DNA from: the human T2T-CHM13v2.0 reference genome, Homo sapiens
Length of the DNA stretch: 64,000 nt
Reading direction: 5' to 3' (one strand)
Assembly: GCF_009914755.1 (NCBI RefSeq)
Contig: NC_060926.1
A program made the position numbers and the translations under genes. Shown here in pieces: positions 49,961 through 58,182 of the stretch. The notes under the pieces were generated by a model, which was not told the origin of the DNA, searched no databases, and saw only the letters and a program-made list of their open reading frames with translations. Numbering within the stretch: position 1 is the first letter of the stretch; every line of letters starts with the position of its first letter.

Positions 49961-52844
49961 TTTTCTTTATTTTTTTTATTATACTTTAAGTTCTAGGGTA
50001 CATGTGCACAACATTCAGGTTTGTTACATACATATACATGTGCCATGTTGGTGAGCTGCACCCATTAACTCGTCATTTACCTTAGGTATATCTCCTAATG
50101 CTATCCCTCCACCCTCCCCTCACCCCACAACAGGCCCCAGAGTGTGATGTTCCCCTTCCTGTGCCCATGTGTTCTCATTGTTCAATTCCCATCTATGAGT
50201 GAGAACATGCGGTGTTTGGTTTTTTTTCCTTGCGATAGGTTGCTGAAATTGATGGTTTCCAGCTTCATCCATGTCCCTACAAAGGACATGAACTCATCAT
50301 TTTTTATGGCTGCATAGTATTCCATGGTGTATATGTGCCACATTTTCTTGATCCAATCTATCATTGTTGGACATTTGGCTTGGTTTCAAGTCTTTGCTAT
50401 TGTGAATAGTGCCGCAATAAACATACGTGTGCATGTGTCTTTATAGCAGCATGATTTATAATCCTTTGGGTATATACCCAGTAAAGGGATGGCTGGGTCA
50501 AATGGTATTTCTAGTTCTAGATCCTTGAGGAATTGCCACACTGTCTTCCACAATGGTTGAACTAGTTTACAGTCCCACTAACAGTGTAAAAGTGTTCCTA
50601 TTTCTCCACATCCTCTCCAGCACCTGTTGTTTCCTGACTTTTTAATGATTGCCGTTCTAACTGGTGTGAGATGGTATCTCATTGTGGTTTTGATTTGCAT
50701 TTCTCTGATGGCCAGTGATGATGAGCATTTTTTCATGTGTCTGTTGGCTGCATAAATGTTTTTTTTTGTTTTTTGAGACAGTCTCGCTCTGTCGCCCAGG
50801 CTGGAGTGCAGTGGTGTGATCTTGACTCACTGCAATTTCCACTTCCTGGGTTCACGCCATTCTCCCACCTCAGCCTCCCAAGCAGGTGGGACTACAGGTA
50901 CCTGCTACCACACCCAGCTGATTTTTTTGTATTTTTTATTAGAGACGGGGTTTCACCATGTTAGCCAGGATGGTCTCGATCTCCTGACCTCGTGATCCAC
51001 CCGCCTCAGCCTCCCAAAGTGCTGGGATTACGGGCATGAGCCACTGCACCCACTCCCCATAAATGTCTTCTTTTGAGAAGTATCTCTTCATATACTTTGC
51101 CCACTTTTTGATGGGGTTGTTTTTTTTCTTGTAAATTTGAGTTCTTTTTAGATTCTGGATATTAGCCCTTTGTCAGATGAGTAGATTGCAAAAATTTTCT
51201 CCCATTCTGTAGGTTGCCTGTTCACTCTGATGGTAGTTTCTTTTACTGTGCAGAAGCTCTTTAGTTTAATTAGATACCATTTGTCAGTTTTGGCTTTTGT
51301 TGCCATTGCTTTTGGTGTTTTAGACATGAAGTCCTTGCCCATGCCTATGTCCTGAATGGTATTGCCTAGATTTTCTTCTAGGATTTTTATGGTTTTAGTT
51401 CTAACATTTAAGTCTTTAATCCATCTTGAATTAATTTTTGTATAAGGTGTAAGGAAGGGATCCAGTTTCAGCTTTCTACATATGGCTAGCCAGTTTCCCA
51501 GCATCATTTATTAAATAGGGAATGCTTTCCCCATTTCTTGTTTTTGTCAGGTTTGTCAAAGATCAGATAGTTGTAGATGTGTGGTATTATTTCTGAGGGC
51601 TCTGTTCTGTTCCATTGGTCTATATCTGTGTTGTGGCACCAGTACCATGCTGTTTTGGTTACTGTAGCCTTGTAGTATAGTTTGAAGTCAGGTAGTGTGA
51701 TGCCTCCAGCTTTGTTCTTTTGGCTTAGCATTGACTTGGTGATGCGGGCTCTTTTTTGGTTCCATATGAACTTTAAAGTAGTTTTTTCCAATTCTGTGAA
51801 GAAAGTCATTGGTAGCTTGATGGGGATGGCATTGAATCTATAAATTACCTTGGGCAGTATGGCCATTTTCACAATATTGATTCTTCCTATCCATGAGCAT
51901 GGAATGTTCTTCCATTTGTTTGTGTCCTTTTTTATTTCATTAAGCAGTGGTTTGTAGTTCTGCTTGAAGAGGTCCTTCACATGCCTTGTAAGTTGGATTC
52001 CTAGGTATTTTATTCTCTTTGAAGCAATTGTGAATGGGAGTTCACTCATGATTTGGCTCTCTGTTTGTCTGTTATTGGTGTATAAGAATGCTTGTGATTT
52101 TTGCACATTGATTTTGTATCCTGAGGCTTTGCTGAAGTTGCTTATCAGCTTAAGGAGATCTAGGGCTGACACAATGGGGTTTTCTAAATATACAATCATC
52201 ATGTCATCTGCAAACAGGGACAATTTTACTTCCTCTTTTCCTAATTGAATACCCTTTATTTCTTTCTCCTGCCTGATTGCCCTGGCCAGAACTTCCAACA
52301 CTATGTTGAACTGGAGTGGTGCAAGAGGACATCCCTGTCTTGTGCCAGTTTTCAAAGGGAATGCTTCCAGTTTTTGCCCATTCAGTATGATATTGGCCGT
52401 GGGTTTGTAATAAATAGCTCTTGTTATTTTTTGATATGTCCCATCAATACCTAATTTATTGAGAGTTTTTAGCATGAAGGGCTGTTGAATTTTGTGGAAG
52501 GCCTTTTCTGCATCTATTGAGATAATCATGTGGTTTTTGTCTTTGGTTCTGTTTCTGTGCTGGATTACGTTTATTGATTTGTGTATGTTGAACCAGACTT
52601 GTATGCCAGGGATGAAGCCCACTTGATCATGGTGGATAAGCTTTTTGATGTGCTGCTGGATTCGGTTTGCCAGTATTTTATTGAGGATTTTTGCATTGAT
52701 GTTCATCAGGGATATTGGTCTAAAATTCTCTTTTTTGGTTGTGTTTCTGCCAGACTTTGGTATCAGGATGATGCTGGCTTCATAAAATGAGTTAGGGAGG
52801 ATTCCCTCCTCTTCTATTGTTTGGAATAGTTTCAGAAGGAATGG
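49961..52844 (-). mobile_element. 5'-truncated L1PA4/5-like element ('L1-B')
   Basis: Poly-T tail, 3'UTR and ORF2 back to PFLLKLFQ; ends abruptly at 52844 with no TSD partner. Confidence 0.95.
50760..51057 (-). mobile_element. AluY/Sc-like element nested in L1-B
   Basis: Full dimer with ttagccaggatggtctcgatctcc and gggttcacgccattc; TSD core cataaatgt on both sides. Confidence 0.93.
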
Positions 52845-52961
52845 CCTCTGCTGCTGATACCCAGGCAAACAGCGACTGGAGTGGACTTCCAGCATACTCC
52901 AACAGACCTGCAGCTGAGGGTCCTGACTGTTAGTAGGAAAACTAACAAACAGAAAGGACAT
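51504..52961 (-). other. Open chimeric ORF of ~485 aa: antisense 5'UTR peptide fused to the L1 ORF2 RT domain; function unsupported
   Basis: First ATG at 52961 (the track start at 52970 is TTG); frame crosses the junction at [12 protein letters not shown] and stays open through QGCPLAP and FADD. Confidence 0.6.
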
Positions 52962-53025
52962 CCACACCAAAACCCCATCTGTACATCACCATCATCGACG
53001 TCCAAAGGTAGATAAAACCTCAAAG

Positions 53026-54046
53026 ATGGGGAAAAAACAGAGCAGAAAAGCTGAAAATTCTAAAAATCAGAGCACCTCTTCCCCTCCAAAGGAACACAGC
53101 TCCTTGCCAGCAATGGAACAAAGCTGGATGGAGAATGACTTTGACGAGTTGAGAGAAGAAGGCTTCAGATGATCAAAGTTCTCTGAGCTAAAGGAGGAAG
53201 TACGAACCCTTTGCAAAGAAGCTAAAAACCTTGAAAAAAGATTAGACGAATGGCTAACTAGAATAAGCAGTGTAGAGAAGTCCTTAAATGAACGGATGGA
53301 GCTGAAAACCATGGCACGAGAACCACGTGATGAATGCACAAACTTCAGTAGCCGATTTGATCAACTAGAAGACAGAGAGGGTATCAGTGATTGAAGATCA
53401 AATGAATGAAATGAAGTGAGAAGAGAAGTTTAGAGAAAAAAGAGTAAAAAGAAATGAACAAAGCTTCCAAGAAATATGGGACTATGTGAAAAGACCAAAT
53501 CTACGTCTGATTGCCATACCTGAAAGTCATGGGGAGAATGGAACCAAGTTGGAAAACACTCTGTAGGATATTATCCAGGAGAACTTCCCCAACCTAGCAA
53601 GGCAGGCCAAAATTCAAATTCAGGAAATACAGAGAAGAGAATGCCACAAAGATACTCCTCGAGAAGAGCAACTCCAAGACACATAATTGTCAGATTCACC
53701 AAAGTTGAAATGAAGGAAAAAATGTTAAGGGCAGCCAGAGAGAAAGGTCGGGTTACCCACAAAGGGAAGCCCATCAGACTAACAATGGATCTCTCAGCAG
53801 AAACTCTACAAGCCAGAAGAGAGTGGGGGCCAATATTCAACATTCTTAAAGAAAAGAATTTTCAACCCAGAATTTCATATCCAGCCAACGTAAGCTTCAT
53901 AAGTGAAGGAGAAATAAAATACAGACAAGCAAATGCTGAGAGATTTTGTCACCACTAGACCTGCCCTATAAGAGCTACTGAAGGAAGCACTAAACATGGA
54001 AAGGCACAACCAGTACCAGCCCCTGCAAAAACATGCCAAATTGTAA
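53026..54046 (+). pseudogene. L1-C ORF1, disrupted
   Basis: ATG GGG AAA AAA CAG start; stops, small insertions and a 5-bp deletion near 53920. Confidence 0.93.
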
Positions 54047-57100: not shown

Positions 57101-57937
57101 TAAAACACCAAAAGCAATGGCAACAAAAGCCAAAACTGACAAATGGTATCTAATTAAACTAAAGAGCTTCTGCACAGTAAAAGAAACTACCATCAGAGTG
57201 AACAGGCAACCTACAGAATGGGAGAAAATTTTTGCAATCTACTCATCTGACAAAGGGCTAATATCCAGAATCTAAAAAGAACTCAAACAAATTTACAAGA
57301 AAAAAACAACCCCATCAAAAAGTGGGCAAAGTATATGAACAGACACTTCTCAAAAGAGGACATTTGTGCAGCCAACAGACACATGAAAAAATGCTCATCA
57401 TCACTGGCTATCAGAGAAGTGCAAATCAAAACCACAATAAAATATCATCTCACACCAGTTAGAATGGCGATCATTAAAAAGTCAGGAAACAACAGGTGCT
57501 GGAGAGGATGTGGAGAAATAGGAACACTTTGATACTGTTGGTGGGACTGTAAACTAGTTCAACCATTGTGGAAGTCAGTGTGGCGATTCCTCAAGGATCT
57601 AGAACTAGAAATACCATTTGACCCAGCCAACCCATTAGTGGGTATATACCCAAAGGATTATAAATCATGCTTCTATAAAGACACATGCACACGTATGTTT
57701 ATTTAGGCCCTATTCACAATAGCAAACGCTTGGAAGCAACCCAAATGTCCATCAATGATGGGCTGGATTAAGAAAATGTGGCACATATGTACCATGGAAT
57801 ACTATGCAGCCATAAAAAATGGTGAGTTAGTGTCCTTTGCAGGGACATGGATGAAGCTGGAAACCATCATTCTGAGCAAACTATCGCAAGGACAAAAAAC
57901 CAAACACCGCATGTTCTCACTCATAGGTGGGAATTGA
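54110..57937 (+). pseudogene. L1-C ORF2, disrupted
   Basis: MTGSNSHITIL through RMFSLIGGN in many fragments. Confidence 0.95.
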
Positions 57938-58143
57938 ACACTGAGAACACTTGGACACAGGAAGGGGAACATCACACACCGGGGCCTGTCATGGGGTGGG
58001 GGGAGGGGGAGGGATAGCATTAGGAGGTATACCTAATATGAATGATGCATTAATGTGTGCAGCACACAAACATGGCAGATGTATACATATGTAACAAACC
58101 TGCACGTTGTGCACATGTACCCTAGAACTTAAAGGATAATAAA

Positions 58144-58182
58144 ATATACATATATATATTTCTATATATATATATATGTATA
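58144..58182. repeat. (TA)n microsatellite in the L1-C tail
   Basis: Read directly. Confidence 0.9.

What the first reader, a model, noticed from the sequence alone, without database searches (positions are those of the whole stretch)
49961..58145. Head-to-head L1 fusion with two outward-facing tails: ~2.6-kb arms around a 2.7-kb spacer
Seen: at 52844/52845 the minus-strand ORF2 (...gaaggaatgg) joins directly to a plus-strand 5'UTR (cctctgctgctg...). There is no host DNA between them, at most 1 bp of microhomology, and no TSD that I can find for either copy. Established: ordinary twin priming gives one tail and non-overlapping segments, whereas here the 3' 2.6 kb is present twice with two tails. 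Inference: either a deletion removed both 5' ends of two adjacent L1s, or two poly(A)-primed cDNAs met in one event, or a fold-back duplication occurred. The spacer (52845-55572) is a candidate recurrent inversion that short reads would miss.
Basis: partly seen in the sequence, partly recalled or inferred. Interest (0 to 1): 0.75.

Follow-up and report, generated by a model that had tools for sequence, protein, structure and literature searches.

The report
Partly homogenised head-to-head L1 pair
Two dead LINE-1 copies sit head to head with both front ends missing; the inner 1.7 kb of their mirrored arms shares 30 rare mutations while the outer 0.8 kb shares one, so one arm was likely overwritten from the other long after insertion, a likely case of a known process (gene conversion between inverted repeats) with no listed human inversion found here.

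Summary
The structure is real: a minus-strand L1 3' piece (A, 49961-52844, with an Alu at ~50761-51057) joins a plus-strand L1 (B, 52845-58145) at 1 bp of microhomology, with no TSD. Over 1.67 kb (A 52754-51094 / B 55652-57332) they differ by 2.35% and share 30 rare alleles, one a stop, plus a 3-bp insertion absent from 27 of 27 other copies. The outer 0.79 kb differs by 8.65% and shares one; the innermost 90 bp differs by 7.6%. The tract ends beside an 11-bp deletion inside and the Alu outside. Best reading (0.65): two separate insertions, non-homologous loss of both 5' ends, then gene conversion between the arms, roughly a third of the way back to insertion. A single template switch (0.2) or two synchronous insertions (0.1) remain open. 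Whole-arm fold-back, twin priming and nested insertion fail. No inversion is listed here in the human tables I could search. A second inverted L1 pair in my panel shows the same signature, so this is a known kind of event, cleanly exposed.

The parts
49961..49981 (-). A-rich tail of L1 copy A; no matching TSD at the junction
49982..50760 (-). Arm A, outer unconverted part (end of ORF2, 3'UTR)
   Evidence: 68 of 786 columns differ from B; 19 A-only, 32 B-only, 1 shared rare allele
50761..51057 (-). Alu inserted in arm A only, same sense as A, flanked by a TSD; sits at the outer end of the tract (AluY-like by recalled diagnostics, not tested)
51094..52754 (-). Arm A, homogenised tract (first to last shared rare allele)
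52755..52844 (-). Arm A, innermost 90 bp, as diverged as the outer part
   Evidence: 6 of 79 columns differ, 0 shared rare alleles
52844..52845 (.). Junction: antisense ORF2 (about codon 490) joined to sense 5'UTR, 1 bp microhomology, no insertion, no TSD
52845..55572 (+). Spacer: last 177 bp of 5'UTR, broken ORF1, endonuclease part of broken ORF2 of copy B; first ~860 bp of the 5'UTR (relative to copy C) are missing
55573..55651 (+). Arm B, innermost part, with an 11-bp B-only deletion at 55646/55647 next to the inner end of the tract
   Evidence: 24 of 24 panel copies lack the deletion
55652..57332 (+). Arm B, homogenised tract; shared 3-bp insertion at ~56204 next to the FADD codons
57333..58145 (+). 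Arm B, outer unconverted part
58146..58185 (+). Short A-rich tail and (TA)n stretch of copy B

Best explanation
Two decayed L1 copies lie head to head with both 5' ends and both inner TSDs gone, and the inner 1.67 kb of their arms descends from one already mutated copy; most likely they inserted separately, lost the DNA between them by non-homologous repair, and one arm was later overwritten from the other by gene conversion. Shown: the anatomy, the 1-bp junction, the shared rare alleles, the sharp ends of the tract. Inferred step 1: two insertions from different source lineages of one age group (older than neighbour C; 'L1PA5-like' is a recalled label). Inferred step 2: a break in the closely spaced inverted pair was end-joined, removing ~3.6 kb of A, ~0.86 kb of B at most, and whatever lay between; an insertion-mediated deletion by the second L1 would leave the same trace. 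Inferred step 3: the arms paired within one chromatid and heteroduplex or repair synthesis ran until it met heterology, the 11-bp deletion on the inside and the Alu on the outside. It happened about a quarter to two-fifths of the way back to insertion (tips 0.0068 and 0.017 against a shared stem of 0.023); with recalled ape divergences that is between the gorilla and orangutan splits. Direction of copying is not resolved; a crossover that flipped the spacer at the same time is possible but untested.
For: 30 shared rare non-CpG alleles in the tract against 1 outside; null: 300 pairs of 25 panel copies share 0.47 on average, at most 4. They are decay, not source-lineage alleles: 20 non-synonymous, 9 synonymous, 1 stop, whereas common lineage alleles are 17 to 20; shared 3-bp insertion in 0 of 27 other copies. 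In a genome search with 461 bp of arm A, arm B is the best other hit at 98%, the next at 94% (40 scored of 2,643 candidates). Trees: A+B 100/100 in the tract, 0 of 200 bootstrap trees in the outer part. Innermost 79 columns look unconverted (p 0.014; likelihood ratio 192 over 'copied'), and both tract ends fall at indel heterologies (6 bp from the 11-bp deletion; within ~25-37 bp of the Alu and its TSD). A second inverted pair on contig C5 shares 10 unique alleles, other 189 pairs at most 2. Conversion between palindrome arms and asymmetric centre deletions are described (PMC8327919, passages).
Against: Needs two or three events where a template switch needs one. The 90-bp inner boundary was chosen after seeing the data, so the ratio of 192 is inflated. 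No patchwork of tracts of different ages after clustered changes are collapsed (P 0.26-0.44; uncollapsed longest gap P 0.036), so it looks like one 1.67-kb event, and PMC3961182 (passage) says mammalian tracts are rarely over 1 kb. Separate origin of the outer arms is not proven (AU p 0.064). B carries more private changes than A throughout (53 against 30, p 0.015), unexplained. The panel is made of best BLAST hits, so its mutation loads are biased low. No orthologue was seen.
Confidence: 0.65

Rival explanations
1. One replication-repair event: a broken end in A next to the Alu invaded B through L1 homology, copied ~1.76 kb towards B's 5' end, then rejoined B's 5'UTR at 1 bp of microhomology. 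This makes the inner arm of A a copy of B and creates the junction at the same moment (one homologous and one non-homologous junction, as in inverted duplication-deletion rearrangements).
For: One event explains junction, missing TSDs and tract; no age patchwork in the tract; tract longer than typical conversion; inner-tract lineage alleles group with the older panel copies, which B's outer arm resembles at 2 of 3 distinguishing columns against 1 of 3 for A; such paired junctions are known in human inverted CNVs (PMC10766186, passages).
Against: The innermost 79 columns hold 0 shared and 6 unshared rare alleles, which needs error-prone synthesis at the junction; the tract's inner end coincides with a B-only 11-bp deletion rather than with the junction.
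Confidence: 0.2
2. Two L1 cDNAs primed at two nearby nicks on opposite strands were joined 5' to 5' in one event, deleting the DNA between the nicks; conversion followed later.
For: Both tails face out, both inner TSDs are absent, 1 bp microhomology is typical of L1 5' joints; junctions holding two primed ends were seen in cultured cells (PMC11702581, passages); both outer arms fall in the same age group and sister status is not rejected (p 0.064).
Against: Outer arms differ at three common non-CpG lineage columns and have unequal loads (18 and 33 of 737); it still needs the later conversion; no reciprocal tail-less junction was found with an exact two-motif pattern (4 matches, none on this contig and none reading as L1 by eye).
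Confidence: 0.1
3. The spacer has flipped at least once (or toggles) by crossover inside the tract; compatible with the best explanation, not an alternative to it.
For: 97.6% identity over 1.67 kb with a 221-bp exact run matches L1 pairs that mediate human inversions (median 97.1%, PMC9675761); spacer load 48 of 2,266 (2.1%, summed) is nearer A's outer arm (2.4%) than B's (4.5%).
Against: Not among chr2 rows between 97.9 and 241.2 Mb of a 44-sample T2T table, not hit by 5 coordinate prefixes and 4 id prefixes in the 65-sample tables, not among 49 human-chimp retrotransposon inversions. Frequent exchange would keep the arms nearer 100%. Load comparison crosses regions and panels and is weak.
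Confidence: 0.25
4. Assembly artefact (collapsed or mis-joined L1s).
For: The whole stretch is L1.
Against: Arms differ at 39 substitutions and 6 indels within or at the edges of the tract, with CpGs decayed differently in the two arms; an artefact would give identical arms. Reads were not seen.
Confidence: 0.01

Closest known systems
Gene conversion between inverted-repeat (palindrome) arms, with asymmetric centre deletion (primate X palindromes, PMC8327919, passages seen)
   Same: Arms more alike than their age allows; centre lost asymmetrically at non-homologous breakpoints.
   Different: Arms are two retrotransposon copies of 2.6 kb on an autosome, only partly and apparently once homogenised (2.35% against under 0.2%), no gene in them.
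L1 recombination-mediated inversions (PMC2603318; PMC9675761; HsInv0341 with L1PA3 arms in PMC3961182; passages and tables seen)
   Same: Inverted L1PA pair, ~97% identity, few-kb spacer.
   Different: No inverted allele is known here; the spacer is itself L1 and fused to one arm; those papers describe chimeric arms from crossover, here shared derived alleles show copying.
Inverted duplication by template switching (DUP-TRP/INV-DUP, INV-DUP-DEL; PMC10766186, passages seen)
   Same: One junction in inverted homology, one with 0-4 bp microhomology.
   Different: Innermost 90 bp is not a copy; scale is 2 kb; ancient and fixed in the reference.
Twin-primed 5'-inverted L1 (as described in PMC12350158, PMC10191854, PMC11702581; passages seen)
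   Same: Antisense and sense L1 pieces joined with little microhomology.
   Different: Two 3' ends, no outer TSD, duplicated part includes the tail; outer arms 8.65% apart.

Membership tests
L1 (LINE-1) retrotransposon copies | ORF1 and ORF2 (endonuclease, reverse transcriptase) domains, 3' A-rich tail | tested here: met
L1PA5 subfamily | Subfamily-diagnostic positions against a reference consensus | not testable with these tools
   No repeat library. Only relative: both arms group with the older panel copies, copy C with the younger. The name is recalled.
Gene conversion between inverted repeats | Tract of shared derived alleles flanked by unshared sequence | tested here: met
   30 shared in tract, 1 outside, 0 in innermost part
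Gene conversion between inverted repeats | Different tree for tract and flank | tested here: met
   100/100 clade in tract; 0 of 200 bootstrap trees outside, AU p 0.064
Gene conversion between inverted repeats | Recipient sequence existed before the event (non-reciprocal replacement, not duplication) | tested here: inconclusive
   Supported only by 79 innermost columns; needs orthologues
L1-mediated (recurrent) inversion | Inverted L1 pair of high identity around a spacer | tested here: met
   97.6% over 1.67 kb, 221-bp exact run
L1-mediated (recurrent) inversion | Both spacer orientations seen in haplotypes or species | tested here: inconclusive
   Not listed in tables searched; two files were cut when stored, ape supplement unreadable; no haplotypes available
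Twin-primed 5'-inverted L1 | One tail and a TSD around the whole insertion | tested here: not met
   Two 3' ends; no TSD between the outer flanks
Nested L1-in-L1 insertion | Rest of the host element beyond the inserted element's tail, plus TSD | tested here: not met
   Neither flank holds L1 5' sequence (the first 600 bp of the 721-bp right-flank query match only themselves)
Whole-arm fold-back duplication | Uniform identity and shared mutations along the whole arm, flank included | tested here: not met
   Outer arms 8.65% apart; flanks no more alike in inverted sense than chance, 204 of 300 random 500-mers score as high
Synchronous two-ended L1 insertion | Both copies of the same age, appearing on one branch | not testable with these tools
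   Needs orthologues; indirect tests mixed

The most novel reading that the evidence does not exclude
Neighbouring inverted L1 copies routinely overwrite each other over kilobase tracts that stop at Alu insertions and small indels, and the overwriting marks spacers that have flipped in ape evolution unseen by inversion callers; this locus and the C5 pair met by chance among 20 copies would be two of many, giving a datable genome-wide record of ectopic conversion tract length and a bias in L1 age estimates.
Probability: 0.25. Interest if true: 0.55.

Novelty: new member of a known kind. Interest (0 to 1): 0.3.

Why it matters
No gene is touched; the stretch lies in introns of two lncRNA models on opposite strands (hub annotation), so transcripts would carry a 1.7-kb near-perfect stem, untested. 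Its value is as a clean natural record: a single dated conversion tract with both ends readable, showing that a dead L1 can be a mosaic of two copies, that heterologies likely stop the tract, and that arm identity high enough for inversion can be acquired after insertion.

Tried and rejected
TSD search at junction and flanks: none. Inverted similarity of the flanks: chance level. Paralogue or empty site for the right flank in the genome: none, only a short old repeat at query 600-721; the left flank was not searched. Reciprocal junction of a large inversion: exact two-motif pattern gave 4 unrelated-looking matches; inexact junctions would be missed. Shared alleles as an unsampled active lineage: rejected by the non-synonymous excess and a stop and by the genome search. 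Copy C as third partner: 2 rare alleles with A only, 1 with B only, 1 with both, no tract. Patchwork of several tracts: not significant after collapsing clusters. The 488-codon frame across the junction: 446 codons inside A; 4 of 23 panel loci have as long a frame, and it carries the shared extra codon by FADD, so not taken as preserved. Which outer arm the spacer belongs to: lineage columns were uninformative and the 3' ends of spacer-matched copies were not obtained, so it stays open. Literature: nine answered searches found no paper on this locus (LOC101927960: 0 papers) and none devoted to conversion in inverted L1 pairs; subscription journals are mostly missing and the 2022 Cell inversion paper is not held.
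Full report
Anatomy. The window holds a minus-strand L1 3' piece, A (49961-52844), joined directly to a plus-strand L1, B (52845-58145). Pfam and solved structures confirm L1 ORF1 and ORF2 remnants; A begins at about ORF2p residue 490, B 177 bp before ORF1. A holds an Alu with its own TSD at ~50761-51057. A full-length L1, C (about 38355-44512, minus, with TSD), lies 5.4 kb to the left and served as projection reference. 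The junction has 1 bp of microhomology, checked against 9 other copies; no TSD was found for A, B or the pair. Neither flank carries the missing 5' parts, so this is not a nested insertion.

The panel. I took the 29 best other genomic hits to each outer arm (40 scored of 6,870 and 8,954 candidates), four longer loci of which three covered the arm, and 20 short stretches across the spacer-arm border: 61 copies for most of the arm, 81 with the inner end, plus C. Being best hits, they are biased to low divergence. An allele was called rare if non-CpG and at most 8% in the panel.

The arms are a mosaic. A and B differ at 6 of 79 columns in the innermost 90 bp, 39 of 1,657 in the next 1.67 kb and 68 of 786 in the outer part. 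Rare alleles: tract 30 shared, 11 A-only, 21 B-only; outer 1, 19, 32; innermost 0, 4, 2. Unrelated panel pairs share 0.47 on average and at most 4 of this kind (300 pairs). The shared alleles are 20 non-synonymous, 9 synonymous and 1 stop, and both arms carry a 3-bp insertion beside the FADD codons found in 0 of 27 other copies, so they arose in a dead genomic copy and were then copied. A genome search with 461 bp of A ranks B first among other copies at 98%, the next at 94%. In trees A and B are sisters at 100/100 in the tract (27 rows) and never in 200 bootstrap trees of the outer part (25 rows), though forcing them together is not rejected (p 0.064).

Tract ends and date. The first shared allele is 6 bp from an 11-bp deletion in B; the last is at A 51094, with the Alu's TSD at about 51074-51058. 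Both ends thus fall at heterologies, as expected if heteroduplex extension stops there (inference). After collapsing clustered changes the differences inside the tract are evenly spread (P 0.26-0.44; the uncollapsed longest gap gave 0.036), so one event suffices. Tips of 0.0068 and 0.017 against a stem of 0.023 put it a quarter to two-fifths of the way back to insertion. Divergence of 2.35% (95% interval 1.7-3.2%) lies between human-gorilla and human-orangutan values as I recall them; PMC12058530 dates those splits to 10.6-10.9 and 18.2-19.6 million years (passage).

Mechanism. Best: separate insertions (outer arms differ at three common lineage-type transversions), non-homologous loss of the centre, then conversion (0.65). 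The main rival is a single template switch from A to B beside the Alu with rejoining in B's 5'UTR (0.2); it is more economical but predicts a copied innermost 90 bp, which is not seen (likelihood ratio 192, inflated by a boundary chosen after the fact). Synchronous insertion (0.1) still needs the conversion. Whole-arm fold-back and twin priming fail. B has more private changes than A both inside and outside the tract (53 against 30, p 0.015); I have no tested explanation. The donor is unresolved.

Inversion. Identity of 97.6% with a 221-bp exact run is in the range of L1 pairs at human inversions (median 97.1%, PMC9675761, passages; HsInv0341 has L1PA3 arms, PMC3961182, passages). But Table S1 of PMC10150506 (44 samples, T2T coordinates; rows of chr2 from 97.9 to 241.2 Mb seen, main text not read) goes from 184.2 to 222.6 Mb with nothing here. 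In the supplement of PMC12350169 (65 samples; file cut when stored; head of the CHM13 inversion table present) five coordinate prefixes and four id prefixes gave no row; prefixes 209238, 209241, 209242 and 209246 were not tried. PMC12350158 (passages; supplement cut when stored, inversion table not confirmed present) gave no row. Table S1 of PMC2603318 (read whole; passages of the text) has four chr2 loci, none near 209 Mb. The supplement of PMC12058530 was unreadable, and its curated list covers events over 10 kb. So a present-day polymorphism is unsupported, a past flip untested.

Generality and novelty. Two of the 20 border stretches happened to be an inverted pair ~25 kb apart on contig C5; they differ at 28 of 1,070 columns and share 10 alleles seen in no other copy, against at most 2 in the other 189 pairs; that pair is not in the PMC10150506 table either. 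Conversion between inverted arms and asymmetric centre loss are known for palindromes (PMC8327919, passages), paired homologous and blunt junctions for inverted CNVs (PMC10766186, passages), two primed ends in one junction for L1 in cultured cells (PMC11702581, passages), short fold-backs of 52-220 bp at L1 sites (PMC10191854, passages). My nine answered searches found nothing on this locus. Verdict: real, a new member of a known kind, interest 0.3.

Noticed in passing
L075 / L076 (G000:C5, about 176.596-176.627 Mb): Two near full-length L1s on opposite strands ~25 kb apart share 10 alleles seen in no other panel copy over 1,070 columns: a second converted inverted pair; not in the PMC10150506 inversion table.
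   Followed up: partly
window 38355-44512 (-): Full-length L1 (copy C) with a ~16-bp TSD and a 5'UTR of ~1,040 bp; younger lineage group than A and B; inverted relative to B but shows no conversion tract with A or B in the 2.5 kb compared.
   Followed up: partly
window 52970-51504 (-): A 488-codon frame runs from the antisense 5'UTR of B across the junction through the reverse transcriptase domain of A; length is within the panel's range.
   Followed up: yes
window 57333-58145: B's outer arm has 33 rare changes in 737 columns, more than any of 60 panel copies (best hits, biased low), many in tight clusters; it abuts a (TA)n stretch. Unexplained.
   Followed up: partly
L071 (G000:C21, about 41.51 Mb): L1 with 5'UTR/ORF1 start joined directly to ORF2, ~1.9 kb missing, and cut again after ~530 bp.
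   Followed up: no
window 15878-16250, 18487-22114, 25630-29860, 45523-46526; and G000:C2 near 209.165 and 209.254 Mb: The region is L1-rich: a short young 3' end, three older copies at ~70% identity, and two more close L1 matches just outside the window.
   Followed up: no
window 12141-12520, 25256-25634, 32124-32506, 60355-60715: Four ~370-bp repeats 69-79% alike in mixed orientation, probably solo LTRs; one (60355-60715) ends next to the annotated lncRNA exon 60721-60780.
   Followed up: no
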